A stretch of 64,000 bases of DNA, taken from Paraspadella gotoi (Eukaryota; Animalia; Chaetognatha). The stretch is from assembly GCA_051294375.1 (NCBI GenBank), contig CM119265.1, positions 18,130,764 through 18,194,763 on the forward strand, read 5' to 3'. Below the pieces are notes generated by a model, which worked only from the letters and a program-made list of their open reading frames with translations, was not told where the DNA came from and searched no databases. A program made the position numbers and the translations under genes. Positions 4,014 through 45,982 of this stretch are shown in pieces. Position 1 is the stretch's first letter. Each line of letters opens with the position of its first letter.

Positions 4014-4224
4014 TATGTCAATGACAGAACCGTTCAATATAAGCAGTCCCTGAGCTTCGGATCAGGCTGTAACACCATGTTACAGGCGGGTTAAGCGCCC
4101 CGTCCCTCTTAACTGCTAGGAGGCCACCGGGCTAGAACCCCGGACCTTAGGGTTGGGAGGCGAATGACTTGCCTCCGGCACCAATGACCGCTGATGAACG
4201 GTTGGTGGATTTTGGTCCACCATA
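4014..4224 (-). mobile_element. Solo LTR-like unit (family C) with tRNA-like head and twister ribozyme
   Basis: GC-rich island in AT-rich DNA. Minus strand starts TATGGTGGA-ccaaaa-TCCACC (terminal hairpin) and ends TGACATA. A-box-like TGGTGCCGGAGG and T-arm/B-box CCGGGGTTCTAGCCCGG precede the twister. Module order matches the TRIM LTRs. No clean TSD. Confidence 0.65.
4042..4117 (-). ncRNA. Twister ribozyme, P5-type permutation
   Basis: Minus strand: AGCAGU(P5)-UAA-GAGG-GA-CGG-GGCGCU-UAA-CCC-GC-CUGUAAC/GUUACAG(P3)-CCUGA-UCCGAAGC-UCAGG(P4/L4)-G-ACUGCU(P5). L4 CCG pairs with CGG (pseudoknot). P2 is one base short, possibly a sequencing deletion. Confidence 0.75.
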
Positions 4225-4733
4225 ACAATTATACATCCGCCAATTATTAAGGTATTTTAAAACTGTATTCTAGAGAAATCCACTCTTTTTTTTTAAATTT
4301 ATTTCTAAAAGTGAACAAGTTCGGCAATAAAAAAATTTTAAAAGTTGACAAACACCTCATTAAAACTCGTTTAACTAAAAAAACGGACTCCAACACCAGC
4401 GCGAGAAACGAAAAACTAGTCTCGAGCCAAAAATTTAAAAGTAATTTTTTTCTGACGAAGTAGGTTCGTCGCGATAAATTGGATTTCGGCGAAACTTGAA
4501 ACCATTCATCTCGCTCAAAAAAAAAATCCAAAAATCCCACGTCACTTTTTTTTTCAAAGACGTGTGTACGACTACAAAATAGTTACGTTAGTAGCAAATC
4601 TAATGAATTCTGTTTAGGCGCATAGCCGAGACCCAGACCCTTAAACGTATTAGGCGATATGACTTTCGCAATCCTGACAAACGACATGAGATCTTGGCTT
4701 TAACCATTCGCTCTCCCCCTCTCCCTCTTTCAC

Positions 4734-5213
4734 CTGGAGATAATTTGCGTCGAGCATCTCGCTCTCCATCTTCGAGTATCCTTTCTCCCGCGCCACAAGT
4801 CGACGTTCCGCCATCCATAATGAAACGCGTTGGCGCAGCATGGTCGAGAATCGTTGGCGCAAATGTTCCGGGGGAGTTGATCGGGCATTCGTTGCAGACG
4901 GCGCAGATGCAGCGAGGTCGACGTCTCCGAAGGCGTCGAAATCAGCGGCAATGTCTCCTGTGGCTCCAGTGACGACTGTATTGTCTTGGGAATCGACGTC
5001 ATCCTTAAAATCGACGTCGTGATTGTCGAAGTCTTTGCGGTAACCGGCGCCATTTTTCACTCTATGCTCTTTGGTATGTGTGCCGTTGACTCTTAAGCAT
5101 TCGACTTCCTTTTCCGACATCAACGTCTTCATGAAGAGGATGACGTCATCGGCCAGAGTTGACGTCATTTCCGGTTCTTTTTCGCGCGGCGACGTTTCGT
5201 CCGAAGAAGACAT
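4734..5213 (-). CDS. Probable first coding exon of a spliced gene of unknown function
   Basis: ATG-initiated GC-rich ORF (MSSSDETSPREKEPEM...LDANYLQ) ending at a CAG|GTGAAA donor near 4733. GC-rich blocks at ~3600-3760, ~2760-2955 and ~1800-2330 may be further exons. Confidence 0.5.
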
Positions 5214-6866
5214 TTTCCGTCGTTTTCGTTCGGGTATTTTTGTCTTTTTTGTTTTTTGTTTTTTTATTCATTTAATTATTAATATTAGTATCGGGTCTGG
5301 TTAAACCGATAATCAATTATATTTTAGTTCATCAATTTTGACCAATGAAGTCTGGGATCATTCACGCAACATGGCCCAAAACTCTGAAGATCCACCCAAG
5401 ATGCGGCCCTAAAAAAGGAAAAAAAATAATTGTCGAGTTTTTTTCTATTGCTTTTTTTATTGATTTTTATTGTTTTCCGAAAGTAAATAATTCTTTCGCG
5501 GGCAGGTCAGATTCGTTTACATAAAAAATAGTTGAAGTTAGCGGCGAAAACCACTTTTTTACCAGCAAATCATTTAGGTTGTTTTTTCCCGAAACAGAGC
5601 AGTCGACGATTTCTGAAATATACTCTTTAAGTTTAATTTCGAGAAATGAAGTCAGCTTGCAGCTTGGTTTTGCTTCGTTCTCGTATAAGATTTTTTAAAT
5701 GATAAATTTTTAACTCATTGTAAAATAACAATTTAACTCAAATTGAAATCATCTGAACTTTATACACAATTCACAACTAAAGTTCGTGTGACGAAACGAT
5801 TTTTTTTCTTCTTAGCAGGTTTAATTAGAGTTAATGACGTCACGGAGAAAAGAAAAATAGTAGGCATTGGTTTTTTTATTACTTTTTTTTTCGTTCCTTA
5901 GAGAAGACCTCTGACGATCGGCAAGAAATAAACTTACTAACTTTTTGTTAAAAAAAATGTTGCGACGACTTCATTTTTTGCTATCGTTCGTGCGTCGTTA
6001 TTGATTTTTCCCTCGGGAAACGAAGAAGAGTATGAATCATACTATGATATTGAAATATCAGAGAGAAGAAAACAAAAAGACGACGACGACTACGTTCAGG
6101 ATTAGCCTGGGTGCGAACGTCGTTCCAGTATCCGCTAAGTAAATTAGCCCGGATTTCTATCAACACCGAAAATTTGCCAAGATTGACGCCGGGAAAAAAC
6201 AAAACGGTTCTGAATTTAACTTCAGATTTTAAAAAGAAAATATTAGCAAACACTAAAATTGCGACTTGGATGCCACTCGCGCGCCTTTAGATCGCCCTCC
6301 CCCGAACCTCCAAGAGTCTCAATCAACCTGGTTCCCCACAGCGAGAGTCACAAGAATGTGCGGGTCACTCCTGGGTTCAAATCCGAAGGTCATGAAATCA
6401 GTTCGGGTCAGGCGCGTGCTGGCGATGACAGGCAGCCGCGTTGATTTTAAGAGGGACTAACAAGGACGTTTTACGACAAGTGATATGAGGATTTCAATTG
6501 AATGTGAATGTGAACAAAATGAAATAAAAGAATAAATGAATAATATAAAAGAACAAACGGCGAAGATTTTAGCAAAAAATAAAAAAGTTGTAATCTCCGA
6601 TTTTGTTTTTGTTTTTTTTATTTTTTAATTAACATCAGATGTATTATATTCACAAATTACGCTTACATTATTATGCGTTTATATTTTTATTCGATGCTGA
6701 CATGAAATGAAAAGGCCAAAGCCCAAATATTTGAATTAAGACCTTAAACTGAAAAATATTTAAAAAAAAAAAAAAAAACCGGCATAAAAGCTGAACGAGA
6801 TTGCTGTTATTCGGTCATAAAATATTACATTAAACATTAAAAATTTTCCAGTCGAAATACAAAAGT

Positions 6867-6917
<51 letters not shown>

Positions 6918-7023
6918 GAGTAAGAGTTTGAAGGGTGAGGACCGAGAGGATCAACCTTCGCGTCAAACGATCGACTCGAACTGATTTCGAAAGTTCGGCC
7001 TTCGGCAGAGAATTCGGATGGAT

Positions 7024-7085
7024 TGGCTTAGTAATTAGGGCAACGAACGACGAACGGCAGGTCTTCGGTTCAAGCCCGGGTTGAT
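7024..7085 (+). repeat. tRNA-derived SINE-like head (A/B box)
   Basis: TGGCTTAGTAATTAGG followed ~30 nt later by GGTTCAAGCCC; no complete cloverleaf. Confidence 0.35.
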
Positions 7086-7737: not shown

Positions 7738-7770
<33 letters not shown>

Positions 7771-8989: not shown

Positions 8990-11710
8990 TTGGCGAAAAA
9001 TCCAGGCAAAGCGATCGAGGCGACCAAAAGCGTCCACTACGGCCGCGGACGGGCGGTGCCGTTTCGACGGCCAGCGTTCCACCCCTGTCGACCCGCCTCC
9101 ACTGCCGCTGACGACGGTTTCTCGAGTCCGAGTAGGAAGTAACGAAGATCGGCCGGTTCCGGATTTCCAACGCGCCGCGACCTTGAGGCGCGGGACCACG
9201 ACGTTAGCGTAACGCCCGTGCCGGCGACTCCGCTTCAGGCGCAAAGTCAGGGTCCGAGGCGCTGGTGAACATTTCGGCGGCAGGAGGAGGGCGGACGTGT
9301 CGATCCAACGTCGGGAGCAGCGCCGCGACGACAACTTTGCCCACTGTGAGGAAACCGTCTTCCATCATGAACAGTGCGACGAGGGAGAGCGGGACCGCTG
9401 GTCGGCGCGGAACGACGCCAAACGTGATTCCTGGCGGACTCACGTGGTAGTTTTCTCTTCAGCTACTCTTCTAATCATCGCCATTCATCCTTAGGCTCCG
9501 CAGTCGTCCAAGTGAGATCCATCGGTCAATCGAACGTCGTAGTTAATCATAGTTATCATCATCATCATCATATCATCATCATCATCTCCGTCATCATCAT
9601 CAGGCCATAATGGCTTCAAGAATACTTCAATCCTCTGCAGCCGAGGGTTGGAAATCGTGAGTCTGCGTAGATTAGTTTCTTTTAAATAATTGAAGTCATC
9701 AAACAGACAGACAGGCAAACGAGAGCAAGCAGGCTTTTAGACCCATTTCACTTTGAAAGGGAACGATTTCCTCGCCGGTGTCGGAACAAAAATAAGTTAA
9801 TCTACCCAAAATGGAAGGACGTGCTTGTCGTCTCGACGAATATACGCGGAGAGCGGCGTTGCTCGACGAAGAGGGCGAGGAGGAGCTGGACGTGGACGTG
9901 GAGGACCGAGGAGGAAGAGGATGAGAAAGAAGAGGGCGGGAGAAGGCGAGGAGCGGCGCAGCCTTTACCGAGATCCGACGACGGAGGGAGAAGACGAAGA
10001 AGATGAAGAGGAGGCACGCAGAAGCAAAGCTGGTCAGAAGCCTTTGGCTTAGGTATCAGTTAAATTGCGAGTATATGTGAAATTTAGTGACAACCAAATG
10101 CTTACAAATTAATCGTGTATCCATTTTAAATGAGCTCATTGCCCCTGGCTTGGACAATGGGGACAGGATATAGTGGGTTAAAGGCCGTCATCCCTTTTTA
10201 CAAAAATATCACATACATAGCAGCTTTTAATACGTCATTTTATTATAAATTATACATTATAAAATAGCTAATGCTAAATATGGTAAGAATTGGCAAAAAC
10301 ATTTACGAATACTGTTAGAATGAAATGCTTATGGCATACGGGAGGTAGCCTGTGATACCCGGACGCGGGGTATCACAACTGGCCGATCCTTAGGGCTGCG
10401 GGACCTCAGTGACCGACCTCCGTGCACTGGCCGATGTTATACCGGCACCGTGGGTTAGAGCTCATCTAACTAATGCCAGATCTATTGGACTCCGAAGGCA
10501 TTGTAGTTGTAATATACAGATATATTCCGTCACTGGCCACATCACGCATAGAAGCGGAATATTCGTGGAGAGGCGTCCTGCGGCGTGTGATGTATTCTAG
10601 CCGCTGGCGTTACAAACACATAGACACGAGGCCCGCGCGAAAGACGTGAACAGCAGTGATGGCAGCTTTTAAGGTCTTGCTGCCACACATGTAGCCATAG
10701 ATGCAAATAATCAACTCTCTAACGACCCTTTTCCACCTCAGGTTAAAAAAAAGTCCACCCAACTGACTCTCAATGATCCTCGTCGGCGTTCAATCCTTGA
10801 TTTGCTTGACGCGCCGTTTCTTGGGCTTCGAGCGCCGTTTTCGATGTTTGGCGGCGTCCGTCGGCGTCGTCTTCCTGGGTCTCGCTCGGGACGCGCCGCG
10901 CGATCGGACGGCCGCATGTGCGAGCGCTCTTGGCTATGGGTGATGTTTTATGCAACGCACGGATGAGGCGATCTGGTGGTTCAAATCGAAGGACAAGAAG
11001 CGGGAGCCGGGGTGGTACGAGAACGTTTGCTGGGTTGGTGGCTCAGTGACGGAGAGTCGATCGGTTGTCGAGATTACGGCGCTTAAGATAACGATATTTT
11101 CTTTAAAAAAAATATGTATGTTTCATTAAAAATCAGCATACTAGATCTCCAAATTACTGTTAAATTGGTTAGACTTTAGAAGAAAAAAAAAACATCAATT
11201 AGGTCTAGGTCCCATACAGCCCACACGGGCCGCCGCTAACGTACGCAGCGTCCTGGATTAACAAGAAGAACGCCAACCCAGCAACAAAAAAAAAAAAAAA
11301 AAAAAAAAAACAAAAAAAAAAAACAAAAAAAAAAAAAAAAAAAAAAAACAAAAAAAACTATTCCCGCTTTCAATTAGTCTATCGGATAATTGTACTGTGA
11401 TACTTTATTAAATTTTTGTTACCATGTTTGTTTAAGCTTTCACAAGCCAATCTCCGTTGACACACAAAATAATTTCACTCCTTAATTTTCTCCCTTTAAA
11501 TTTTTTTTTCTTTTCCTTTTCTTCTCTCCATTTCTTTTTCACTCCTAACTACCTTTCCTATTTCCTAATTGCCTTAAACTTCCTGATAAATCTTCACCAC
11601 GAACTTTCACACTAACTTCCGTCGTGGCAATCTTCTCATTCCTACGAGTTCGCTTTACAGTCACCTACTCTCCCTCCTCTCTTCTCTCCTCCTCTCTCTC
11701 TTCTCTCTCT
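8990..11710 (+). repeat. Direct duplicate of 26730-28880 (3' exons of the large membrane-protein gene), rich in insertion errors
   Basis: Colinear by eye, e.g. tccaggcaaagcgatcgaggcgaccaaaag vs tccagcaacgatcgagcgaccaaaag; ends ...GGTGGCTCAGTGA at 11049. Confidence 0.9.
10330..10687 (-). mobile_element. Second, noisy copy of the family B solo LTR
   Basis: TATGGC...GCCACA termini at the same intronic site as 27917-28171. Twister P3/P4/L4 remnants at 10379-10479. The middle is garbled and longer. Confidence 0.7.
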
Positions 11711-11744
11711 CATCTCTACTCTCTCTCTGCCACATCTCGAGACA

Positions 11745-14700: not shown

Positions 14701-17700
14701 AAGAAAACTACTGCCAACGGCGCAAGCGGAACGCGTCTGTTATAGCTTGGAAATTGGAATTCCTCCAGACGAATAATTTCCCGCCAAATATTGAAATATT
14801 TGGCGGAACTCAGAGGCCACCCACGCAAGCAAGCTAATTGGCGCAGCAGCGGGTTTGAGTTGGCTTTTCATACGTCTCTCTTCATAATATCAATTGTGCT
14901 CGTCCAGTCGCCATTTTCCAAGCGCCCGCTAGGAAGCCTTTACAACTAAGAGACGGGGGAAAGTCTTTCTCACACTTTCAGATTTGAATCTATTCATGAT
15001 TTAGATTTTTCTTGGTGAATAAATAATCCTTTATTAACTTTGCTCCATTGATGCGTAGTTGCTGAATTTTATAGAAAGGTGTCCTTTAATCGTATCGTAG
15101 TTTCTCGAATGCCTTTGAAAATGGATTAGCCGAGTATGCTGTATTGAGTTTTGAAAATAAGTTACAAAATTCTAAAAAGTTTAACCCTTACGGTTTCTTC
15201 GTTGTGGCGCAGCAGAAAAAAACAGAATAAAAATAAGAATACCGAAAATCCTATGTTTAAAAAGAACACTACTTTCACATAATCTCATTCTATAAGATTA
15301 TTTTTAGTCATCCTATATATAATAAAGTGAAAAATAACATACCTTTACCTAATAGTTTTTTTTAAACATCATTAAATAATACTATGCTTCTCCTAAGTTT
15401 TTAGCTACGGATTCTACTTTGTCGCGTCCGTCGGGTCTCGTCCCCCAATCTTGGTCGGGCATTTAGCTTATTCTTCTGTCAGCAACATCGAATTATGATA
15501 AATATTATGCAGCAACAAAAAAAATGATGATGTCTGGTCTCTGTCTGTCCGTCCGTCCCACCATTAAGCAAAAAAAACACCAATTATCTCGTGAATTTGA
15601 TAGTATGGATTGGAAAGGTAAATTGTGTGTAGGGTAGGAAAAGTGTGTGATTGTAGCATGGAAAATAAAGTTTCAGTATGATATCGGTCCAACAGTGGAA
15701 ATGAGTTAAAATGGAAAAAACAAACAATTCGTATTTAACTATTTTGATTATGGCTCTTTTTTTATTTTTATATTAAATGTAAATTCAAGCTGCATTAATT
15801 AATTATTAATAAATAAGTAATTAATTAATTAATTATTAATTATTTGCCAATTAATATAATTAATTTTTGGATCGAGATGTTGTTTTTGTGATCTAAGAGG
15901 CGAGACAAAGTGGAAAAACGATTTGNNNNNNNNNNNNNNNNNNNNNNNNNCTTGGGAGCATTATAATTTAATGATTTAAAAAAACTATTACGTAAATTTT
16001 TTTTCTTTATGAAATTGGTACAACCAATATAAAAATTATCCATTCATTTAATAAATAAGCTATCTTGCCCCTGACTTTATATTATAGGATGACTAAAAAA
16101 ATCTTATATGAATGAATTATGTGAAATAGTGTCTTTTTTAAAATATAATTTTGTATTCTTATTTTATTCTGATTTTTATGCGCCACAACGAAGAAACCGT
16201 AAGGTTAAACTTTTTAGAATTTTGTAACTTATTTCAAATCAATACTCGGCTAATCCATTTTCAAAGCATTCGAGAAACTACGAACGAATAAAGGACACCT
16301 TTTTAAATTCAGCAACTCGCATCAAAGCAAAGTAATAAAGGAATTTTTCAAAGAAAATCTAATCATAATCAGATCGTAAAGGTGAAAGACTTCACCCCCT
16401 TAGTTTTAAAGCTTTCCTACGGCGTGGAAAATGCGACACAATTGATATAATGAAAAACTATGAAAAGCCAACCCGCTGCTGCAGCCAATGCTGCTGCGGT
16501 GGCCTCTGAGTCCCGCCAAATATTCAATATTTGGCGGGAAATTATTGTCGGAGGAATTCCACCGCTATAACAGCCGTCGCTGCCGCCGTTGGCAGAGTTT
16601 CTTTTCGAAGGCNNNNNNNNNNNNNNNNNNNNNNNNNNNNNNNNNNNNNNNNNNNNNNNNNNNNNNNNNNNNNNNNNNNNNNNNNNNNNNNNNNNNNNNN
16701 NNNNNNNNNNNNNNNNNNNNNNNNNNNNNNNNNNNNNNNNNNNNNNNNNNNNNNNNNNNNNNNNNNNNNNNNNNNNNNNNNNNNNNNNNNNNNNNNNNNN
16801 NNNNNNNNNNNNNNNNNNNNNNNNNNNNNNNNNNNNNNNNNNNNNNNNNNNNNNNNNNNNNNNNNNNNNNNNNNNNNNNNNNNNNNNNNNNNNNNNNNNN
16901 NNNNNNNNNNNNNNNNNNNNNNNNNNNNNNNNNNNNNNNNNNNNNNNNNNNNNNNNNAAATAAACAAAAAAATGAGGTTAAAGGATTTTTTGGGAGATTA
17001 AATTATGAATCGCTGGAAGAAAAAGTCTTAAGATTAATAAATTGAATATTTCGCTCACGAATTTCATTTACATTTTTTTGAATATCATGCTGGGAACGAA
17101 ATAGAAAAATGGCAATTGGCCAAGTGACCACTGCCCGTTGATCACTGACCACTTCCACCTTAGACTGACCCGGTTACCACGACCACTGACATCAATCTCA
17201 CCCTTCACGACCAGCCCACTCTCCACTCCCCCCCCCNNNNNNNNNNNNNNNNNNNNNNNNNNNNNNNNNNNNNNNNNNNNNNNNNNNNNNNNNNNNNNNN
17301 NNNNNNNNNNNNNNNNNNNNNNNNNNNNNNNNNNNNNNNNNNNNNNNNTTTGTCGTCGTCATCGTCGTCGTCGGGGTTATTTTCATACGTAGTTAAAATT
17401 TTAAAATCGATATCTGATAATTTATTTATAAAATTTGTTTCCGTATTAATTTTTAAAACGAACAAAGATGCTATTGTCGGGCAACGCAGCTCGACCGACG
17501 TTTGTGTATGAATCGTCTCGCCTTTTCCTTCATTCCAATACATTAAATTCGCTCCCATTCACGTCGTCATCGTCATCGTCGTCGGCGTCGTCGTCCTCTT
17601 TCCTTCTCGTCGTTGTTTCGCGTGGATATTGACGTCGTAAAAACGAATTCCCTTGAGAGTTTGGGTGCCATTGGGGTTGGCCGAGTTTCGATGCCGCGTC

Positions 17701-19046: not shown

Positions 19047-19049
19047 ATT

Positions 19050-19814: not shown

Positions 19815-20063
19815 AACTTCGTTTCATAATTAAATAAATTTGTATTATTTTAGGATTCATCTTATGTGTTGACCAAATAGTGTTTGACTTATAGTATTTT
19901 ACTTCAGATTTTTCAAATCTCATACGTAGTACGTGTGCTATTCTTATAAGACAAATTAAATTTGTAGAATATTTTTACCAAATAAAACGAAAAGGGGAAA
20001 CATCCAATTACGAATTTTTTTTTTTATTTTCTCAAAGTTTCCGTTTCGAAGTCAGATTAAAGC

Positions 20064-23000: not shown

Positions 23001-25685
23001 GTCAATCTTTCTTTTTTGTTGTTTGTGTGATATAGGGAAACACGAACGTTTTAATCGGTAACTACAAAGATTGTTATTAATTAAATTATTTTTATTAGTA
23101 AATTTAAATAAATTTATTTGATTTAGTTAAAATGTCTATGAAATGCTTTGCCGAAAAAATTTTGTCAAATGACACATTGTGGCGGTATATTCACACCGCC
23201 TCACATCCAGCTTTGCACCAACCCAAGCGTTACGTTCTTCCACAATTTTAAAGTTTTCCTCTTCGTTGGCAAAGTGAGGCCGTCCTAGGGTTACTGAGGG
23301 TCGGAAGCCGCAAAGCCAACAGTGAGATGCCCCATCCCAAATGGGCATCACAGGCAACCCGGCTGTTTCAGTAATTAAAAGATTTTTTTTTTCCTTTGAC
23401 GCTTTTTCAAATAATTTATATTACGAGTTATTTCCAATTTTAATTTCAGCGCCTATTCAAACCACCACCCAAACTATTGAATATCCCGTACCGAATGAGA
23501 CGGTGGACGGCGTCGCGAACCGACGGGCTCTGAGGAACCTGACCCCGGCAAGGCGCCTGTTCAAGCGCCCATCGAGGAACCTCCAGGAATCTATTCGAGA
23601 CCCTGCAAAGCCCCTGAAAAAGTGCCCAATGAGGAGCCTTCGAAGGAATCTTTCGGGGTTCTCTCTCAAAGCATCTCTCCAGAGTCTGTCGCTAATCAGA
23701 AGGACGCCAAATTAATGGCAGATTTCTGGGGAAACACGCAAAGCTCCATCGGACAAGACGGCCCAACGGGAAATAATCAAGCAGGTGCGTCTGCGGAAAT
23801 CGTCGGCCTGTGAAGAGTAAAGCGTAGCAAAAATAATGAAATCAAGTAGAATCAAAATTCGAATAGTAGATCATGAAGAGGCTTGTACCACTGAACATTT
23901 TTTAAATAAAAAAAAATTTATTTATTCATTCTATATTTATACTTAGTACTCATCATAGAAAATGTCCAAAGTTTTAAAAAGGTTTTTCTTATTTTGAAAG
24001 CAGATTCGACTTCTTCACGAAGAATTGATAAAAGAAAATGTAACTTTTTTTAAAAAAATTATTTCATTAAGTCGGTCAAAATCCTAAAAAAACTGTTACA
24101 GTTATCCATAATTAAATTTTAAAATAAAAAATATAGTTTTTTTAATTTTTAGCTAACTTTATGAAAGAATTTTTGATTAAGACTCATATTTTCTTTTATC
24201 AACTTTTTTAAGGAATTCAATTCTGCTTCGAAACTTTTTTAAAAATTTTTGAATTTGGGCGAGTACTATGTACTCTGATATAAATATAGGCTAATGCGAA
24301 AATTGAGAAGTGTGGCGGTATATTCACACCGCCTCACGTCCACCATCCTTCAGCCAAATCCATTGGCTCAGAGGGGGAACACACCATCCCAAGTGTAGTG
24401 TTCCATCCACAGTCCTAACGACTTCCCTCTGCGTTGGCAAAGCGGAGACCGTCTAGGGTAACCCGCCAGTGACTGGAGGCGTCACTGAGGGTCGAAGCCC
24501 CCAAAGCCAACAGTGAGATGCCATCCCAATGGGCATCACAGGCAACCGGCCTGTTGCCATAAGTGGTGAGCCCTACTATCGATAACACGCAACCTTTTCA
24601 GGGTACGCTACGACAAAACGCTATGCCCCTGGGGTACGCTACGACAAACGCCTATGCCCCTGGGGTACGCTACGACAAAAACGCCTATGCCCCCACAACT
24701 TCGCGCTCTCTCTCTCTCTCCCCTATATGGTAACAGTCTTGTCGACACCTCTCAGGCTTGAGGAACCTGAGTGATGTCTTGGCCCCGGGGATCTGTGGCG
24801 GTATATTCAACACCGCCTCACGTCCACCATCCTTCAGCCAAATCCATTGGCTCAGAGGGAACACACCATCCCAAAGTGTAGTGTTCCATCCACAGTCCTA
24901 ACGACTTCCCTCTGCGTTGGCAAATCGAGACCGTCCTAGGGTAACGCGCCGTGACTGGAGGCGTCACTGGAGGGTCGGAAGCCCCCAAGCCAACATGAGA
25001 TGCCCCCATCCCCAATGGGCATCACAGGCAACCCGGCTGTTCCATAGAAGTTAAATTTTTTTTTATATATAAATGTTCTTTAATACAAATGGTTCATGAT
25101 CATTGATCAACTATTCGAATTTTGATCTGCAACTTCACGATGCTTTAGTGAAGAGTGATGAAGCAGATGGCCCGGCCAAGCAGAGAACCATTGGAACTCC
25201 AGCCAGTCCCAAGAGGACATCTTGTCCGGAGTACCTCGAGGTCGCGCCTCGAGTAAGTCTGACGTCGGCGCCCTGAAGCATGGCACTCGTCCAAGCCTTT
25301 CTCAAGCGCGCCAAAGCAACAGCGGTCCTCGATGGACGGTCGGGCGGGCTGCGTCATGCGAAGGACTACCAGACCACGGAGGATCGGGTGGGCATTAATA
25401 GAGTGATTTAGTCAGTAGGTTGAGTATCTCAGTACCTTTAAATGTAACACTGTTCGATTTTTTTGCCGGATCGCTTCCAATTCATTTTGTCGGTCCATCG
25501 GTCCGCCCCCAAAAATCTTTTCGGTAAACACTAGATCATGTCAGATCATCGAATTATGATAAATTTGTGGGTGGGTGTGTTTTTTGGTTTTCTGCAGTTA
25601 ATCGTAGAAAGTAGAAAATAGCTAATATGTAGAAGACATTTGGCCGACCAGTGCTAGTCGGTTGGCACAAGAATTGCATGTAGAG

Positions 25686-25728
<43 letters not shown>

Positions 25729-28484
25729 TATAAAACGTCAGATTTTTTGTACAGAATTCACTCTCGCATTCCCGCTCAATATATGTCGATTATCAATTAT
25801 TCTATGTCTCTTTAACTACAGTTCATACATTATTATAGTTAATAGTTAATAATAAAAGTAGAAAATAGCTTTCGTGAGTTTGAAACTTTTAATCAGTTCC
25901 TCCTTTACAAGCCGCCACGAAGATGGATCAGCCAGGGAATGAGCAGAACGGGCGAAGAAGGAAGACAACAATTCGAGCGATGTAATTAAAATTATTATCA
26001 TATTTTAAAAAAAAAAAATGGTGAGAATTTTGAACTTATTTTTTTTATCCTTTTCATCGTTCGCACTCTTCCTTTTCCCACAAACCCTTTATTCTCCAAT
26101 GTCCAGTCTTCCTCACACAATCGATCACCTTCACCCAAACTTCGACGTCGAATCCAACTCGGAGTTGGAGGACGTCCGCACCCGACGATCCATGCGGAAC
26201 CTCGATGGCCAAGGGGCGGAAGTCCGGTCGCGCCCGAGCACAACGGCTTCGGTCCGCTGGGCCTCGTTGCCCCGGGAAAAGCATTGACTCCCAGCGTGTC
26301 TCCATAGACCATGGCGTAGAGATACGAAGACACGTTGCGGGAATCAGAAAAGAGGCCGACCGGAGCGCTGAAGAAACAGTTGTCTCTTTTCCCATTTACA
26401 TAATCAAAGGTGGCTGGATGTCTGGGAATAGATGGGGACTGTTGTAAAATATAGTTGAAGGGAAAGTTAAACATTGAACTAAAGGAATTAAAATTAATCT
26501 AACAGACCCTAGATCCGTTATCAAGATGTTTCAAGTGGTTACTACATAGAAAGCAAAAACAATTTAATTCAGTTCACAGATGAAAAAAAAATCAACATAT
26601 ATTACTAATACCACAAACTATTCGTCACCCCAAGCAGACCAACCGTCGTGAATAAGGACCGTCTCTCGTCGCAGCGACTCTCGCGACCGCAGAGTCCGTC
26701 TCCGAGACCCAACGTTCCCTCGCGCGAGCGAAAAATCCAGCAACGATCGAGCGACCAAAAGCCGTCACCTCGGCGCGGACGGCGGCGTCGACGGCCAGTC
26801 ACCCCGTCGACCCGCTCCACCGCGACTCGTTCTCGAGTCGAGGGAAAGTAACGAAGATCGGCGTTCCGATTTCCAACGCGCCGCGACCTTGAGCGCGGGA
26901 AGTAGCGCCGGCCGTCGCGAAAAGTCGCCGATGCGCGGTGATGAATTTGTGCGGCAGGAGGAGGGGCGGACGTGTCGATCCAACGTCGGGAGCAGCGCCG
27001 CCGACGACAACTTTGCCACTGTGAGAAACCGTCTTCCACATGAAATTCGACGAGAGAGCGGGACGCTGGCGGCGCGGAACGACGCCAACGGATTCCTGCG
27101 GACTCCGTGGAGTTTCTTCAGTCTTCTAATCATCGCCATTCATCTTGGGCGCGCAGTCGTCAAGTGAGATCCATCGGTCATCAACGTCGTAGTTCTCATA
27201 GTAATCATCATCATCACATCATCATCCATCATCATCTCCGTCATCATCATCAGGCTAAGCTTCAAAAACTTCAATCTCTGCAGCCGAGGTGAATCGTGTC
27301 TGCGTTAGATTAGTTCTTTTAAATATTTTGAAGTCATCAACAACAGACAGGCAAACAGACAAGCAGGTTTTTAAGACCCATGTCACTTTGAAAGGGAACG
27401 TTTTCCTCGCGGTGTCGGGAACAAACATAGTCTTTAATCTCCCAAAATGAAGGACGTCGCTGTCGTTCGACGATACGCGAGAGGGCGTTGCTCGACGAAG
27501 AGGGCGAGAGGAGGTGGACTGGACGTGGAGGCGAGGAGGAAAGGATGAGAAAGAAGAGGGCGAGAAGGCGAGGAGCGGCGGAGCCTTTACCGAACCGAGA
27601 GGGAAAGACGAGGAAGATGAAGAGAGGCTGCAGAAGAAGCTGGTCAGAGCCTTTGGCTTTAGTTCAGTTAATGCGAGTATATGAATTGGTACAAACCAAT
27701 GTACAAATTATCGATTCATTTAAAAAAATGAGCAATCTTTGCCCCTGGCTTTGGGACAATGACAGGATATAGTGGGTAAGCCGTCATCCCTTTTACAAGA
27801 TAATATCATAACATAGCAGCTTTAATACGTCATTTATTATTAAATTATACATTAAAAATAGTAATGTAAAAATGGTTAGAATTGCAAAACATTACGAATA
27901 CTGTAGAATGAAATGTTATGGCAAGGAGGATAGCCTGTGATACCGGGACGCGGGTATCTCACTAACTGGCGTAGGGGCCTGCGGACCCTCAGTGACCGCC
28001 TCCCTTCACTGGCATGTTTATACCGGCACCGTCACATTTAAGCCAGAACCGGGAATACCCAGGGATTGAACCCGGGACGCACGGATGGAATGAGATGATT
28101 TAAGCCTGCTCAGCCATTGAACGAGGCTGAGGACGGACAGCAGGAGGCAGCTTTAAGTCTTGCTTGCCACATGTAGCCATTTGCAAGATAAATCAACTCT
28201 CTACCAACCCTTTCCACCTCCAGGTAAAAAAAGCACACTGACTCTCATGATCCTCGTCGGCGTCGAACCTGATTTGCTTGACGCGCCGTTCTTGGCTTCG
28301 AGCGCCGTTTCGATGTTGGCGGCTCGTCGGCGTCGTCTTCTGGTCTCGCTCGGACGCGCGATCGACGCGCGGTGGCGGCGCTTGGAGTTTATGCACGCAC
28401 GGATGGGCGATCTGGTGGTTCAATCGAGACAAGAAGCGGGAGCCGGGGTGGTACGAGACGTTGCTGGGTTGGTGGGCTCAGTGA
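20064..28484 (+). CDS. Large multi-exon low-complexity protein with C-terminal TM helix (left-arm copy)
   Basis: Inverted copy of 29240-37560 with more frameshifting errors. Confidence 0.6.
23178..23373 (+). mobile_element. Degenerate solo LTR of family A with deleted twister core
   Basis: Starts TGTGGCGGTATATTCACACCGCC. Retains GTTGGCAAA, CCGTCCTAGGG, GGGTCGGAAGCC and GCCAAC, but lacks the P2 5' strand and P3. Confidence 0.85.
24433..24511 (+). ncRNA. Twister ribozyme (P5-type) in 5' LTR
   Basis: GUUGGC/GCCAAC P5, GACCG, UAA, CAGUGAC/GUCACUG P3, GGG-UCG(G)AAGC-CCC; single-base deletions relative to the right-arm copy. Confidence 0.7.
24916..24994 (+). ncRNA. Twister ribozyme (P5-type) in 3' LTR
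   Basis: Same motif: GACCG-UCCUAGGG-UAA...GGG-UCGGAAGC-CCC...GCCAAC. Confidence 0.7.
27917..28171 (-). mobile_element. Solo LTR (family B) in the last intron; insertion polymorphism
   Basis: Element-strand termini TGTGGC...GCCATA, as in family A. Probable ATGT TSD. Absent at the equivalent site 29555-29558. A-box TGGCTGAGCAGG and B-box GGGTTCAATCCC. Confidence 0.85.
27966..28046 (-). ncRNA. Twister ribozyme (P5-type) in family B solo LTR
   Basis: CUGGC(P5)-UUAA-AUGU(P2)-GA-CGG-UGCCGGUA-UAA-ACAU(P2)-GC-CAGUGA/UCACUG(P3)-AGGG-UCCGCAGGC-CCCU-AC-GCCAG(P5). P2 and the pseudoknot are fully compensated relative to family A. Confidence 0.78.
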
Positions 28485-29239
28485 CGAGAGTCGATCGGTG
28501 TCGAGAACGGCGCTTAAATAACGATATTCTTTAAAAAATATTATGTTTCATAAAAAAAAAGTTTATGTTAAATTGTAGACTTTAGAAGGAAAAAAAAAAC
28601 ATTTCAATTAGTCTATTACTGTGACTCTTAAATTGTAACCATTTGTAGCTTTGAGTTGACAATAATTTCACTCCTTTAATCTCCCTTAAATTTTTTTTTT
28701 CTTTTCCTTTCTTCCATTTCTTTTTCATCCTATCCTTTCCTTTCCTTCCTTAAATTTCCTTAATCTTCACACGAATTCACACTAACTTTCGGGCAATTCT
28801 CATCCTACGAGTTCCTTACGTTCCTCTCTCTCTCTCTCTCTCTCCTCTCTCTTCCTCTCTCTCTCTCTCTCTCCTCTCCAANNNNNNNNNNNNNNNNNNN
28901 NNNNNNTAGGATGAGAATTGCCCGAGAAGTTAGTGTGAAGTTCGTGTGAAGATTAAGGAAATTTAAGGAAAGGAAAGGAAAGGATAGGACTGAAAAAGAA
29001 ATGGAAAAGAAAGGAAAAGAAAAAAAAATTTAAGGGAGATTAAAGGAGTGAAATTATTTGTCAACTCAAAGCTACAAAATGGTACAATTTAAGATCACAG
29101 TACATAGACTAATTGAAATGTTTTTTTTTTCTTCTAAAGTCTACCAATTTAACATATCACTTTTTTTTATGAAACATAATATTTTTTTAAAGAATATCGT
29201 TATTTAAGCGCCGTAATCTCGACAACCGATCGACTCTCG

Positions 29240-31808
29240 TCACTGAGCCCACCAACCCAGCAACGTCTCGTACCACCCCGGCTCCCGCTTCTTGTCTTCG
29301 AATTGAACCACCAGATCGCCCATCCGTGCGTGCATAAACTCCAGCGCCGCCACCGCCGCGTCGATCGCGGCGTCCGAGCGAGACCAGGAAGACGACGCCG
29401 ACGACGCCGCCAACATCGAAACGGCGCTCGAAGCCAAGAAACGGCGCGTCAAGCAAATCAGGATGACGCCGACGAGGATCATGAGAGTCAGTGTGGCTTT
29501 TTTTACCTGGAGGTGGAAAAGGGTTGTTAGAGAGTTGATTATCTTGCAATGGCTACATTTCATTTTACAGTATTCGTAATGTTTTTGCCAATTCTTAACC
29601 ATTTTTACATTACCTATTTTATAATGTATAATTTAAATAATAAAATGACGTATTAAAAGCTGCTATGTTATGTTATATTATCTTGTAAAAGGGATGACGG
29701 CCTTAACCCACTATATCCTGTCCATTGTCCAAAGCCAGGGGCAAGATTGCTCATTTTTTTAAATGAATCGATAATTTGTACATTGGTTGTACCAATTTCA
29801 TATACTCGCAATTAACTGAACTAAAGCCAAAGGCTCTGACCAGCTTCTTCTGCTGCCTCTCTTCATCTTCCTCGTCTTCTCCCTCGTCGGTCTCGGTAAA
29901 GGCTCCGCCGCTCCTCGCCTTCTCCGCCCTCTTCTTTCTCATCCTCTTCCTCCTCGCCTCCACGTCCACGTCCACCTCCTCCTCGCCCTCTTCGTCGAGC
30001 AACGCCCTCTCCGCGTATTCGTCGAGACGACAAGCGACGTACCTTCATTTTGGGAAGATTAAGTTTATGTTTGTTCCCGACACCGCGAGGAAATCGTTCC
30101 CTTTCAAAGTGACATGGTGTTTAAAAGCCTGGCTTGTCTGTTTGCCTGTCTGTCTGTTTGATGACTTTCAAATTATTTAAAGAAACTAATCTAACGCAGA
30201 CACGATTTCACCTCGCTGCAGAGATTGAAGTATTTTGAAGCTTAGCCTGATGATGATGACGGAGAGTGATGATGGTGATGATGATGATGATGATGATGTA
30301 TGACTATGATAACTACGACGTTGATGACCGATGGATCTCACTTGACGGACTGCGCGCCAAGATGAATGGCGATGATTAGAAGTACTGAAGAAACTCCACG
30401 GGAGTCGCCAGGAATCCGTTGGCGTCGTTCCGCGCCGCCAGCGTCCGCTTCCTTCGTCGATTTTCATGTGGAAGACGGTTTCCTCACAGTGGGCAAAGTT
30501 GTGTCGCGGGTGTTCCGGTTGGATCGACACGTCCGCCCCTCCTCCTGCCGCACAAATTCATCACCAGCGCCATCGGCCGACTTTCGCGACGCCGGCGCTA
30601 CGTCCCGCGCCTCAAAGGTCGCGGCGCGTTGGAAATCGGAACCGCCGATCTTCGTTACTTTCCTCTCGACTCGAGAAACCGTCGTCGCGGTGGAGCGGGT
30701 CGACGGGGTGGAACTGGCCGTCGACGCCGCCCGTCCGCGCCGAGGTGACGGCTTTTGGTCGCTCGATCGTTTGCTGGATTTTTCGCTCGCGCGAGCGGAA
30801 CGTTTGGTCTCGGAGACGGACTTGCGGTCGCGAGAGTCGCTGCGACGAGAAGACGGCTCCTTTTCACGATCGGTTGGTTCTGCTTGGGGTGACGAATAGT
30901 TTGGTGTGTATTTAGTAATATATTGTTGATTTTTTTTCATCTGTGAACTGAATTAAATTGTTTTTGTCTTTCTATGTAGTAACCACTTTGAAACATCTTG
31001 ATAACGGATCTAGGGCTCTGTTAGATTAAATTTTAATTCCTTTAGTTACCCAATGTTTTAACTTCCCCTTCAACTATATTTTACAACAGTCCCCATCTAT
31101 TTCCCAGACATCCAGCCACCTTTGATTATGTAAATGGGAAAAGGAGACAACTGTTTCTTCAGCGCTCCGGACGGCCTGCTTTTCTGATTCCCCGCAAACG
31201 TTGTCTTCGTATCTCTACGCCTCTGGTCCTTGGAGACACGCTGGGAGTCAATGCTTTTCCCGGGCAACGAGGCCCAAGCGACCGAAGCCGTTGTTGCTCG
31301 CGGCGCGACCGACTTCCGCCCCTTGGCCATCGAGGTCCGCATGGATCGTCGGGTGCGGACGTCCTCCAACTCCGAGTTGGATTCGACGTCGAAGTTTGGG
31401 TGAAAGGTGATCGATTGTGTGAGGGAAGACTGGACATTGGAGAATAAAGGGTTGTGGAAAAGGAAGAGTGCGAACGATGAAAAAGGATAAAAAAATAAGC
31501 TTCAAAATTCTCAACCATTTTTTTTTTTAAATATGATAATAATTTTAAATTACATCGCTCGAATTGTTGTCTTCCTTCTTCGCCCGTTTCTTGCTCATTC
31601 CCTGGCTGATCCATTCTTCGGTGGCGGCTTGTAAAGGAAGGAACTGATTAAAAGTTTCAAACTCACGAAGCTATTTTCTACTTTTTATTATTAACTATTA
31701 ACTATATTAATGATATGAACTGTATTTAAAGAGACATAGAATAATTGATAATCGACATATATTGAGCGGGATTCGAGAGTGAATTCTGTACAAAAAATCT
31801 GACGTTTT

Positions 31809-31848
<40 letters not shown>

Positions 31849-34800
31849 CTACATGACAATTCTTGTGCCAAACCGACTAGCCACTGGGTCGGCCAAATGT
31901 CTTCTACATATTAGCTATTTTCTACTTTCTACGATTAACTGCAGAAAAACCAAAAAACACAACCCACCCACAAAATTTATCATAATTCGATGATCTGACA
32001 TGATCTAAGTGTCTTACCGAAAAGATTTTTGGGGCGGGACCGATGGACCGACAAAATGAATTGGAAGCGGATCCGGCAAAAAATTCGGAACAGTGATTAC
32101 CATTTAAAGGTAACTGAGATACTCCAACCTACTGACTAAATCAACTCTATTAATGCCCACCCGATCCTCGTTGGTCTTGGTAGTCCTTCGTCAATGACGA
32201 GCCCCGCCCGACCGTCCCCATCGAGGACCGCTGTTGCGTTTGGCGCGCTTGAGAAAGGCTTGGACGAGTGCCATGCTTCAGGGCGCCGACGTCAGACTTA
32301 CTCGAGGCCGGCGACCTCGAGGGTACTCCGGACAAGATGTCCTCTTGGGACTTGGCTGGAGTTCCAATGGCTCCTGCTTTGGCCCGGCCATCTGCTTCAT
32401 CACTCTTCACTAAAGCGTCGTGAAAGTTGCAGATCAAAATTCGAATAGTTGATCAATGATCATGAACCATTTTGTATTAAAGAACATTTATATATAAAAA
32501 AAAAATTAACTTCTATGGCAACAGCCGGGTTGCCTGTGATGCCCATTGGGGATGGGGCATCTCACTGTTGGCTTGGGGGCTTCCGACCCTCAGTGACGCC
32601 TCCAGTCACTGGCGCGGTTACCCTAGGACGGTCTCGTTTGCCAACGCAGAGGGAAGTCGTTAGGACTGTGGATGGAACACTACACTTGGGATGGTGTGTT
32701 CCCCCTCTGAGCCAATGGATTTGGCTGAAGGATGGTGGACGTGAGGCGGTGTGAATATACCGCCACAGGATCCCCGGGCCAAGACATCACTCAGGTTCCT
32801 CAAGCCTGAGAGGTGTCTGACAAGACTGTTACCATATAGGGGAGAGAGAGAGAGAGCGCGAGTTGTGGGGGCATAGGCGTTTTTGTCGTAGCGTACCCCA
32901 GGGGCATAGGCGTTTGTCGTAGCGTACCCCAGGGCATAGGCGTTTGTCGTAGCGTACCCTGAGAAGGTTGCGTGTTCGATAGTAGGGCTCACCACTTATG
33001 GCAACAGCCGGGTTGCCTGTGATGCCCATTGGGATGGGGCATCTCACTGTTGGCTTTGGGGGCTTCCGACCCTCAGTGACGCCTCCAGTCACTGGCGCGG
33101 TTACCCTAGGACGGTCTCCGCTTTGCCAACGCAGAGGGAAGTCGTTAGGACTGTGGATGGAACACTACACTTGGGATGGTGTGTTCCCCCTCTGAGCCAA
33201 TGGATTTGGCTGAAGGATGGTGGACGTGAGGCGGTGTGAATATACCGCCACACTTCTCAATTTTCGCATTAGCCTATATTTATACAGAGTACATAGTACT
33301 CGCCCAAATTTCAAAATTTTAAAAAAGTTTCGAAAGCAGAATTGAATTCCTTAAAAAAGTTGATAAAAGAAAATATGAGTCTTAATCAAAAATTCTTTCA
33401 TAAAGTTAGCTAAAAATTAAAAAAAACTATATTTTTTATTTTAAAATTTAATTATTGGATAACTGTAACAGTTTTTTAGGATTTTGACCGACTTAATGAA
33501 ATAATTTTTTTTAAAAAAAGTTACATTTTCTTTTATCAATTCTTCGTGAAGAAGTCGAATCTGCTTTCAAAAATAAGAAAAAAACCTTTTTAAAACTTTG
33601 ACATTTTCTATGATGAGTACTAAGTATAAATATAGAATGAATAAATAAATTTTTTTTATTTAAAAATGTTCAGTGGTACAAGCCTCTTCATGATCTACTA
33701 TTCGAATTTTGATTCTACTTGATTTCATTATTTTTGCTACGCTTTACTCTTCACGAGGCCGACGATTTCCGCAGACGCACCTGCTTGATTATTTCCCGTT
33801 GGGCCCGTCTTGTCCGATGGAGCTTGCGTGTTTCCCCAGAAATCTGCCATTAATTTGGCGTCCTTCTGATTAGGCGACAGACTCTGGAGAGATGGCTTTG
33901 AGAGAGAACCCCGAAAAGATTCCTTCGAAGGCTCCTCATTGGGCACTTTTTCAGGGGCTTTTGCAGGGTCTCGAATAGATTCCCTTGGAGGTTCCTCGAT
34001 GGGCGCTTGAACAGGCGCCTTGCCGGGGTCAGGTTCCTCAGAGCCCGTCGGTTTCGCGACGCCGTCCACCGTCTCATTCGGTACGGGATATTCAATAGTT
34101 TGGGTGGTGGTTTGAATAGGCGCTGAAATTAAAATTGGAAATAACTCGTAATATAAATTATTTGAAAAAGCGTCAAAGGATAAAAAAAATCTTTTAATTA
34201 CTGAAACAGCCGGGTTGCCTGTGATGCCCATTGGGATGGGGCATCTCACTGTTGGCTTTGCGGGCTTCCGACCCTCAGTAACCCTAGGACGGCCTCACTT
34301 TGCCAACGAAGAGGGAAAACTTTAAAATTGTGGAAGGAACGTAACGCTTGGGTTGGTGCAAAGCTGGATGTGAGGCGGTGTGAATATACCGCCACAATGT
34401 GTCATTTGACAAAATTTTTTCGGCAAAGCATTTCATAGACATTTTAACTAAATCAAATAAATTTATTTAAATTTTACTAATAAAAATAATTTAATTAATA
34501 ACAATCTTTGTAGTTACCGATTAAAACGTTCGTGTTTCCTAATATCACACAAACAACAAAAAAGAAAGATTTGACACAATAATAAGGATTTAATAATGAT
34601 TAAAAGCTAAATTTCTCAGGACATTACTATTTCTTGAAAGGTTTTAAATTTAAAGTTTATTAAAGTTTTAAAACATTAAGTTTCACCTTACGAAACATCA
34701 CAAGAATCTCAACCGAAATTTACTCACCCTGTTCAGAGTCCTGGCCGTCATCGTCATCGCCCATCGCGTGCATAGACGTTTCCATCCCCTTGGTCGTTGT

Positions 34801-35806: not shown

Positions 35807-35844
<38 letters not shown>

Positions 35845-37560: not shown

Positions 37561-37830
37561 CTTTAATCTGACTTCGAAACGGAAACTTTGAGAAAATAAA
37601 AACAAAAAATTCGTAATTGGATGTTTCCCCTTTTTGTTTTATTTGGTAAAAATATTCTACAAAATTTAATTTGTCTTATAAGAATAGCACACGTACTACG
37701 TAATGAGATTTGAAAAATCTGAAGTAAAAATACTATAGCTCACTTAATAAAGTCAAACACTATTTGGTCAACACATAAGATGAATCCTAAAATAATACAA
37801 ATTTATTTAATTGTAGTAATGAACAAAGTT

Positions 37831-44485: not shown

Positions 44486-44522
<37 letters not shown>

Positions 44523-45943: not shown

Positions 45944-45982
<39 letters not shown>

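What the first reader, a model, noticed from the sequence alone, without database searches (positions are those of the whole stretch)
4014..33252. Three divergent LTR families share one RNA architecture with compensatory changes
Families A (24311-25046/32514-33252), B (27917-28171) and C (4014-4224) differ in primary sequence but keep the same module order: 5' terminal hairpin, tRNA-like head, twister. The terminal hairpins are GGCGGU/ACCGCC, GGCAGC/GCUGCC and GGUGGA/UCCACC. Twister covariation: P5 GUUGGC/GCCAAC vs CUGGC/GCCAG vs AGCAGU/ACUGCU; P2 CCGC/GCGG vs ACAU/AUGU; P3 CAGUGAC/GUCACUG vs CUGUAAC/GUUACAG; P4 GGG/CCC vs CCUGA/UCAGG; pseudoknot CGG/CCG vs CCG/CGG. This indicates selection on the fold. 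Four independent insertion sites in this small locus suggest an abundant superfamily.
Basis: seen in the sequence. Interest (0 to 1): 0.88.

Follow-up and report, generated by a model that had tools for sequence, protein, structure and literature searches.

The report
Twister-ribozyme mini-retrotransposons with tRNA-like promoters
These are abundant, protein-free jumping elements whose terminal repeats carry a tRNA-like stretch followed by a twister-type RNA fold with a self-complementary patch, so they likely spread through an RNA predicted to cut itself out when two repeats pair, a design described in plants with a different ribozyme.

Summary
The helices are real, but some details were wrong. 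The two A ranges are one insertion seen twice in a mirrored assembly. C spans 3991-4224. A and B are 66% identical, so they are relatives.

There are four insertion sites (A, a decayed A2, B, C). A, B and C are highly repeated in independent short-read contigs.

A is a 736-nt LTR-internal-LTR element with TGT...ATA ends, a 4-bp TSD and a tRNA-Trp primer site. These three traits match CsRn1-clade Ty3/Gypsy elements. B and C are solo units.

Each LTR has Pol III box-like motifs, then a type-P5 twister fold. It scores below Rfam thresholds. New here: in all three families P1 is a 6-8-nt palindrome with differing sequence, as in dimer-acting hammerheads.

Likely mechanism (inferred, untested): Pol III transcription, paired cutting in both LTRs, a 483-nt circle, and reverse transcription by a Gypsy helper. 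This joins Helenus TRIMs (tRNA-like LTR, no ribozyme reported) with plant retrozymes (hammerhead LTR). I found no such combination in the literature searches run. Cleavage, circles, host taxon and significant covariation are not shown.

The parts
24311..24561 (+). Family A 5' LTR (TGT...ATA), preceded by TSD GAAG at 24307-24310
   Evidence: loose ends at 24311 in 119/96/66/28 contigs of X1/X5/X7/X9
24314..24333 (+). A terminal hairpin (6 bp, 8-nt loop)
24351..24408 (+). A box A-like (24351-24366) and box B-like (24399-24408) motifs; degenerate tRNA-like Pol III promoter (inferred)
   Evidence: not called by ARAGORN
24433..24511 (+). A 5' LTR type-P5 twister fold; predicted cut between 24459 and 24460; palindrome 24452-24458 (one base short in this read)
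24564..24600 (+). Primer binding site for tRNA-Trp (24564-24573), followed by further tRNA-Trp-complementary sequence with 16 exact matches to a published probe
24562..24793 (+). A internal region, about 230 nt, no long ORF: PBS, three ~30-nt tandem repeats, CT run; no canonical polypurine tract before the 3' LTR
24794..25046 (+). Family A 3' LTR with second twister (24916-24994; palindrome 24934-24941; predicted cut 24942/24943); TSD GAAG at 25047-25050
32514..33252 (-). Mirror copy of the same A insertion (5' LTR 32997-33252, 3' LTR 32514-32767); cleaner read; cut-to-cut unit 483 nt (33102-32620)
23178..23367 (+). A2: decayed solo LTR of the A family; keeps hairpin and palindrome, lacks the box A region, cut site and part of P3, 3' end truncated, no TSD
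34203..34396 (-). Mirror copy of A2
27917..28171 (-). Family B solo LTR (TGT...ATA); TSD ATGT at 27913-27916 and 28171-28174 (one base shared with the LTR end); box A-like 28114-28129, box B-like 28063-28072; twister 27966-28046; palindrome 28021-28028; predicted cut 28020/28019
29555..29558 (.). Empty B site in the mirror arm: single copy of the 4-bp target, no element
10331..10690 (-). B at the same site in a third, much noisier read of the locus; middle part does not align
3991..4224 (-). Family C solo unit (TA...CA); TSD ACAA at 3987-3990 and 4225-4228; hairpin 4203-4222; box A-like 4181-4193; box B-like 4130-4139; twister 4042-4117; palindrome 4094-4099; predicted cut 4093/4092
23449..28357 (+). 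Host gene of unknown family; a contig of run X9 joins 23782 to 25147 (GT..AG), so A lies in sense in an intron; another skips 27645-28225, which holds B in antisense
   Evidence: tables 5 and 8; no Pfam match

Best explanation
These are high-copy, non-coding LTR retrotransposons and solo LTRs whose repeats hold Pol III box-like motifs, a type-P5 twister fold and a palindromic P1, and they likely replicate like retrozymes: probably transcribed by Pol III, predicted to be cut in both LTRs when the two twisters pair, and then presumably circularised and reverse-transcribed by a CsRn1-type Gypsy helper. SHOWN: LTR-internal-LTR anatomy, 4-bp TSDs, tRNA-Trp PBS and TGT...ATA ends (A), high copy number, an empty allele for B, the twister helices and pseudoknots, and a self-complementary P1 in A, B and C. 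INFERRED: (1) Pol III starts near box A of the 5' LTR and reads through, since no terminator run lies on that strand in the cleaner read. (2) The lone P1 is only 1-2 bp, but the two LTR copies can form a strand-swapped dimer with a 6-8-bp P1, so full elements would cut efficiently while solo LTRs and the monomeric circle would cut poorly. [quoted passage not shown] (4) tRNA-Trp primes at the PBS, the helper RT copies more than one round of the circle to rebuild two LTRs, and its integrase inserts the DNA with a 4-bp TSD, preferring ATAT-like targets.
For: Anatomy and TSDs. Sharp ends with many different flanks whose consensus ends or begins with ATAT-like letters. PBS equal to the CsRn1-clade PBS, plus TGT...ATA ends and 4-bp TSD as in that clade (PMC2582038); 16-nt exact match to a tRNA-Trp probe (PMC5737633). 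Twister order matches the Rfam P5 consensus printed; T1 differs from that consensus on both sides and between families. No TTT in 739+255+234 nt of sense strand against 16 AAA; only 52 of 1032 GC-matched windows lack TTT. Palindromes pair 8/8, 8/8 and 6/6; 5 of 8 letters differ between A and B, including two double-sided changes. The swapped dimer is 17-21 kcal/mol below two twister monomers, and B's unconstrained dimer minimum-energy fold is the twister secondary structure. The 483-nt unit folds as a circle with z -3.2. Precedents: retrozyme cycle (PMC4918200); palindromic-tetraloop hammerheads that work as dimers, and RtcB ligation (PMC7229834); tolerance of P1/P2 defects, L1 insertions and the A-to-C change seen in B (PMC11662667).
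Against: No cleavage, transcript end or circle was observed. Rfam scores are far below gathering. C lacks one position in P2 or the G-A junction (either a 2-bp P2 or no general-base G), and this is not a read error (no indels). A has either a C-A mismatch in P2 or an extra A. P1 is dispensable in other twisters (PMC5408937), so monomers may cut anyway. The twister fold is 9-16 kcal/mol above the minimum-energy fold as monomer and as dimer, pseudoknots not counted. There is no canonical PPT. The left-arm read has a TTTT at 24595, and the TTT deficit is weak against dinucleotide shuffles (P 0.10, 0.19, 0.036). Within family C, variable sites are not clearly rarer in the twister (5 of 76) than outside (16 of 158). 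B and C were seen only as solo units, and C's ends are TA...CA. No helper element was found; no genome is held.
Confidence: 0.6

Rival explanations
1. The twister is active but serves as a 3'-end former in place of a Pol III terminator (or cuts as a monomer). The RNA stays linear, keeps a repeat of roughly 110-120 nt from the Pol III start to the cut site, and replicates by ordinary strand transfer like Cassandra or Helenus.
For: No terminator run on the sense strand of the cleaner read, whereas many fungal and wasp Helenus LTRs I read show a T-run after the tRNA part. P1 is dispensable in other twisters. No circle was observed.
Against: Both LTRs carry the same twister, so the 5' copy would have to stay silent. 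A palindrome kept in three different sequences is not needed for this model.
Confidence: 0.2
2. The twister-like fold is a non-catalytic or vestigial scaffold, and the palindrome is a kissing-loop dimerisation or packaging signal for the helper's particles.
For: Each family departs from the consensus somewhere (A in P2 or the junction, B in L4, C in P2 or the junction). Rfam does not call them. Thousands of intronic copies would have to be tolerated.
Against: Both pseudoknots, the U-A-A cut motif and the L4 motif are kept in all three families (B's T2 with one extra base that many contigs lack). About 94% of natural twisters tested were active, with such imperfections mostly tolerated (PMC11662667).
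Confidence: 0.12
3. The units are SINE-like (tRNA head plus ribozyme, as in Schistosoma SINE-like repeats), and A is a chance tandem of two.
For: tRNA-like part near the 5' end; B and C seen only as single units; Pol III hammerhead SINE-like repeats are known (PMC6765202).
Against: A PBS 2 nt after the 5' unit, TGT...ATA ends, exact ends in many contigs, 4-bp TSDs and no tail. This rival stays more open for C than for A and B.
Confidence: 0.06
4. The pattern is a product of noisy, folded-back long reads.
For: The window is a noisy assembly with mirrored and triplicated segments.
Against: Short-read contigs of four runs from three studies cover A, B and C with the same ends and no indels in C. 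Only the duplication of A and A2 is an artefact.
Confidence: 0.01

Closest known systems
Helenus / TRIMp3 (Kojima 2024, PMC10886601; read main-text parts 1-4 and 6 of 6, supplement parts 1, 5, 8 of 11, three motif searches of the supplement)
   Same: Short non-coding LTR element with tRNA-like box A/B in the LTR, tRNA PBS, 4-bp TSD and Gypsy helper in animals; solo LTRs; size in range.
   Different: 'Twister' does not occur in the text. Six twister L4 motifs gave 0 hits, and 28 hits of three shorter motifs showed no twister context on reading (motifs split by line breaks would be missed). Here the tRNA-like part is more degenerate and is followed by a ribozyme fold, and the PPT is not canonical.
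Plant LTR retrozymes (Cervera et al. 2016, PMC4918200; review PMC7761336; passages read)
   Same: Non-autonomous, ribozyme inside each LTR, PBS, 4-bp TSD, Ty3/Gypsy helper, solo LTRs; cut-to-cut unit highly structured.
   Different: Retrozymes use type III hammerheads and tRNA-Met, have a PPT and occur in plants. Here: twister type P5, tRNA-Trp, a tRNA-like internal promoter and a shorter unit (483 nt). Circles are shown there, not here.
Metazoan non-LTR retrozymes with type I hammerheads (PMC7229834; passages read)
   Same: Weak helix capped by a palindromic tetraloop, better cleavage as dimers, circularised by RtcB.
   Different: They lack LTR, PBS and PPT and are tandem repeats with hammerheads.
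Type-P5 twister ribozyme (Rfam RF02684; review PMC5408937 parts 1-2 of 7; CHiTA study PMC11662667, abstract, passages, sections 32 part 2 and 35)
   Same: Order P5-P2-GA-T1-P1-UAA-P2-GC-P3-P4-L4-P5; both pseudoknots.
   Different: P1 reduced to a palindrome; T1 sequence altered on both sides; family-specific defects; below Rfam gathering score.
CsRn1-clade Ty3/Gypsy retrotransposons (PwRn1, AgCR; PMC2582038, passages and section 6)
   Same: PBS sequence, TGT...ATA termini and 4-bp TSD match families A (all three traits) and B (ends, TSD).
   Different: They encode Gag-Pol, have a PPT, and were reported without target preference; here flanks lean to ATAT. Candidate helper clade only; no helper was found.
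Twister T-variants of Schistosoma Perere-3 (PMC8501958; passages read)
   Same: Twister tied to a retrotransposon, with relaxed P1.
   Different: Non-LTR autonomous element cut once at its 5' end; P1 supplied by the insertion site.

Membership tests
TRIM / Helenus (TRIMp3) | Two LTRs around a short non-coding interior, under about 1.3 kb | tested here: met
   A: 736 nt, LTRs 98% identical in the cleaner read. B and C were seen only as solo units.
TRIM / Helenus (TRIMp3) | 4-bp TSD (animal type) | tested here: met
   GAAG (A), ACAA (C), ATGT (B, one base shared, empty allele present); none for A2.
TRIM / Helenus (TRIMp3) | PBS complementary to a tRNA 3' end | tested here: met
   A only. The host's own tRNA-Trp was not available.
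TRIM / Helenus (TRIMp3) | Polypurine tract before the 3' LTR | tested here: not met
   At most five purines, three bases before the LTR.
TRIM / Helenus (TRIMp3) | tRNA-derived box A (TRGCY..YGG) and box B (GGTTC) in the LTR | tested here: inconclusive
   GGTTC present in B and C, one mismatch in A; shared CAGC..TGG motif; ARAGORN and Rfam call no tRNA.
TRIM / Helenus (TRIMp3) | Transcription by Pol III | not testable with these tools
   Indirect only: no TTT on the sense strand of the cleaner reads.
Retrozyme (plant LTR type) | Hammerhead ribozyme in each LTR | tested here: not met
   No hammerhead hit; a twister fold stands in its place. It works like a retrozyme by inference but is not a member as defined.
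Retrozyme (plant LTR type) | LTR, PBS, 4-bp TSD, Gypsy-like ends | tested here: met
Retrozyme (plant LTR type) | Accumulation of cut-to-cut circular RNA | not testable with these tools
   Only contigs were served; they cannot show ends, strand or level.
Twister ribozyme, type P5 | P2, P4 (and optional P3, P5) in permuted order | tested here: met
   P2 imperfect in C and in part of A
Twister ribozyme, type P5 | Pseudoknots T1 and T2 | tested here: met
   T1 3/3 in A, B, C; T2 intact in A and C; B's window read has one extra base at 27978 that contigs carrying about 40% of the X1 depth lack
Twister ribozyme, type P5 | Conserved L1 and L4 nucleotides (NAA cut site, G-A junction, L4 motif) | tested here: inconclusive
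   UAA in all three; G-A junction clean in B, shifted or with a mismatch in A, one position short in C; L4 A-to-C in B (reported as tolerated)
Twister ribozyme, type P5 | Stem P1 | tested here: not met
   Only 1-2 bp possible within one copy; 6-8 bp between two copies. P1 is reported dispensable.
Twister ribozyme, type P5 | Rfam gathering score | tested here: not met
   Best 15.2 bits, partial, on twister-P1; none on B or C
Twister ribozyme, type P5 | Site-specific self-cleavage | not testable with these tools
   needs an in vitro assay

The most novel reading that the evidence does not exclude
A superfamily of animal LTR 'twister retrozymes': Pol III-driven miniature retrotransposons that replicate through circular RNA, use an obligate-dimer twister as a latch so that only two-LTR transcripts are cut (sparing host introns full of solo LTRs), and borrow CsRn1-type Gypsy machinery. 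It would give twister ribozymes a defined role in LTR retrotransposition and a natural dimeric twister.
Probability: 0.4. Interest if true: 0.85.

Novelty: new variant of a known kind. Interest (0 to 1): 0.72.

Why it matters
The reviews I read say that animal retrozymes lack LTR, PBS and PPT and that LTR retrozymes are plant elements with hammerheads; the one twister-retrotransposon link I found in print is a non-LTR element. If active, these elements show the retrozyme design arising with another ribozyme class and a Pol III promoter. They also give a directly testable job for eukaryotic twisters and a natural dimer-gated twister. Rfam misses them, so similar elements may be hidden elsewhere. 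Many copies in several subfamilies would give a rich alignment.

Tried and rejected
No genome is held for this window, so copies could not be collected for an R-scape-type test.

Pattern scans found no relatives. The metagenome scan gave 15 matches, none with the flanking twister or LTR sequence. The viral scan for the C motif gave 0. The tRNA-Trp motif gave 2 viral loci without a tRNA. Rfam found nothing on the 35-nt PBS stretch.

No RNA holder is listed on record. X9 is only guessed to be RNA; it shows spliced joints, but its contigs say nothing about element transcripts. The joint 24945 back to 24464 (482 nt) is close to the predicted circle, but it occurs in three DNA runs and not in X9, and it sits at read errors of the left arm; rejected as circle evidence. 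Summed contig depth is not used as a copy number.

Host identity was not resolved: no Pfam match at E 0.001 in 11 and 128 ORFs, two sub-threshold matches among 8 rescanned, no homologue for one exon-like ORF, and the Atlas did not answer. An animal host is inferred from spliced introns and CsRn1-type traits.

A sequence-only model and nhmmer found no fifth insertion in the window. MAFFT does not put C in register with A and B, so the pair count covers A and B only; a first count used a mis-indexed structure and is void (redone).

Weak Rfam Twister-P5 hits at 43927-43969 and 61791-61833 (25 bits, E 0.41) and the descriptor hit at 37325-37375 were treated as chance.

Roth et al. 2014 and Lunse et al. 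2017 are not held. Their supplements, Repbase and 8 of 11 Helenus supplement parts (motif-searched but not read) may bear on novelty.
Full report
1. The window. It is eukaryotic DNA from a noisy long-read assembly. 19052-27916 recurs inverted at 38602-29555 (95.5%) around a 25-N gap, 8993-11207 is a third and worse read of 26728-28615, and 34689-44510 recurs at 52488-62375. The two A ranges in the finding are therefore one insertion. Nine LTR-type matches in the window reduce to four sites: A, A2, B and C. The mirror arm lacks B and keeps a single copy of its 4-bp target (29555-29558), while the third read has B. The simplest reading is two haplotypes and a polymorphic, so recent, B insertion; this is inferred. 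No genome is held. Nine runs of one organism in three studies hold the region.

2. The elements are real and abundant. In short-read contigs, summed depth in X1 is about 85 in unique bins, 482,000 over the A LTR, 338,000 over B and up to 2.8 million over C against 61.5 beside it. The tool warns that this is not a copy number. Distinct flanks give a floor: loose ends in 119, 96, 66 and 28 contigs (X1, X5, X7, X9) at A's first base, and 82, 66, 40 and 24 at 3991 for C. Their consensus next to the element is ATAT-like. These ends fix C at 3991-4224, with TSD ACAA. Contigs of X9 (guessed RNA) join 23782 to 25147 with GT..AG ends and skip 27645-28225, so A lies in sense and B in antisense in introns of an unidentified gene.

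3. LTR retrotransposon anatomy. A is 736 nt: LTR (251-256 nt), about 230 nt of interior, LTR, flanked by GAAG. Two bases after the 5' LTR stands TGGTGAGCCC. This is the PBS given for CsRn1-clade Ty3/Gypsy elements, complementary to tRNA-Trp; that clade also has TGT...ATA or TGT...AAA ends and 4-bp TSDs (PMC2582038). A and B end TGT...ATA. The PBS matches the bee tRNA-Trp complement at 11 of 13 positions (Helenus supplement). Further on, 16 bases match a human tRNA-Trp probe exactly (PMC5737633), so the tRNA-derived stretch is about twice the usual PBS length. There is no canonical PPT. B and C were seen only as solo units; C ends TA...CA.

4. tRNA-like part. All three share a CAGC..TGG motif 32-43 nt into the LTR and a box B-like motif 48-57 nt further on (GGTTC in B and C, one mismatch in A). 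ARAGORN and Rfam call no tRNA. The sense strands of A (739 nt, cleaner read), B and C contain no TTT against 16 AAA; 52 of 1032 GC-matched windows lack TTT. Shuffle P values are 0.006, 0.027 and 0.031 (mononucleotide) but 0.10, 0.19 and 0.036 (dinucleotide), and the left-arm read shows one TTTT. Pol III transcription is plausible, not shown.

5. Twister fold. T1 keeps its first C-G pair and differs from the Rfam consensus on both sides at the other positions. Between A and B, 5 of 27 pairs change on both sides (P5 1, P2 1, T1 1, P1 2), while the compared 6 bp of P3 and all of P4 are identical. This is two families and a fitted structure, not a significance test. Rfam gives only a partial 15-bit twister-P1 match on A. 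Each family departs from the consensus. A has an extra A in the junction (5' LTR) or a C-A mismatch in P2 (loose-end consensus). B has A-to-C in L4. C is one position short in P2 or the G-A junction, with no indel in the contigs. A survey of natural twisters found P1 and P2 defects, L1 insertions and that A-to-C change tolerated, but loss of the general-base G harmful (PMC11662667), so C is the least certain. In C, variable sites are 5 of 76 in the twister and 16 of 158 outside; none falls on the cut site, junction or palindrome, and two are T1 partners, both CpG-type, with phase unknown. A2 has lost the cut site and is dead by inspection.

6. The palindrome. Earlier AI notes on Naiad elements in other genomes suggested looking at P1; I tested it here. 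The segment between T1 and the cut site is self-complementary in all three families: 8/8, 8/8 and 6/6, G-U allowed, with three different Watson-Crick palindromic cores. The chance is 1/16 each given a closing stem, and A and B differ at 5 of 8 letters. One copy can form only 1-2 bp. A strand-swapped dimer is 17-21 kcal/mol below two twister monomers, and for B the unconstrained dimer minimum already has the twister secondary structure. The twister fold still lies 9-16 kcal/mol above the minimum-energy fold without pseudoknots. The arrangement parallels amphibian hammerheads with a palindromic tetraloop that cut better as dimers (PMC7229834). Against it, P1 is dispensable in other twisters (PMC5408937).

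7. Mechanism. Cutting in both LTRs of A would release 483 nt, which folds as a circle with z -3.2 against 60 shuffles. By analogy with plant retrozymes (PMC4918200) the unit would be ligated, primed by tRNA-Trp, copied beyond one round by a helper RT and integrated with a 4-bp TSD. Dimer dependence would stabilise the monomeric circle and spare host transcripts that carry solo LTRs. All of this is inference (confidence 0.6). The main rival is a linear RNA whose 3' end is made by the twister (0.2).

8. Known systems and novelty. Helenus TRIMs have tRNA-like LTRs but no ribozyme reported. Plant retrozymes have hammerhead LTRs; animal retrozymes lack LTR and PBS. Twisters are tied to the non-LTR Perere-3. 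Eight literature searches combining twister with LTR, TRIM, retrozyme, Gypsy, Pol III, palindrome or permutation terms listed no LTR element with a twister. I judged most listed papers by title and abstract start only, saw only the top rows of the three largest result sets, and the library lacks most subscription journals, Roth 2014 and Repbase. Look-ups of this scan's notes by sequence, place and words found no such element. Verdict: a new variant that joins two known kinds, strictly a member of neither (no PPT; no hammerhead). Interest 0.72.

Noticed in passing
window 19052-38602, 8993-11207, 34689-44510 / 52488-62375: Large mirrored and repeated segments with 4-20% divergence and N gaps: the same loci assembled two or three times from noisy reads or haplotypes.
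   Followed up: partly
window 24574-24600: tRNA-Trp complementarity runs well past the usual 18-nt PBS, and the proximal part is more degenerate than the distal 16 bases; it may record reverse transcription far into the primer tRNA.
   Followed up: partly
window 32868-32959 (mirror 24601-24693): Three ~30-nt tandem repeats in A's interior, each a small hairpin; the first can pair with the PBS region in the predicted fold.
   Followed up: no
window 24512-24561 and 27917-27965: A and B end with two further hairpins of different sequence next to the LTR 3' end; C lacks them and instead has a long helix enclosing the tRNA-like part and twister.
   Followed up: no
window 3991-4224: 8 of 23 listed variants in family C are CpG-type transitions, a hint of DNA methylation on these repeats; loose ends at 4020-4026 show a subfamily with a different 3' part.
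   Followed up: partly
window 10450-10640: The middle of B in the third read is about 100 nt longer and does not align; garbled read or a different allele.
   Followed up: no
window 23650-24300: Another high-copy AT-rich repeat directly upstream of A in the same intron (contig depth up to 90,000 in X1).
   Followed up: no
window 6290-6560: GC-rich patch with a box B-like motif near 6373 and a short tandem tail near 6500-6525; possible SINE.
   Followed up: no
window 43085-43651: Broken reading frames that recall a Tc1-type transposase (my recollection; no Pfam support).
   Followed up: no
window 34723-37383 (-): 887-codon stop-free frame, low complexity and acidic/basic, no Pfam match.
   Followed up: partly
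window 45780-47200 and 16570-16960: Tandem arrays: a ~100-150-nt unit with CT runs, and an 8-nt AT-rich satellite.
   Followed up: no
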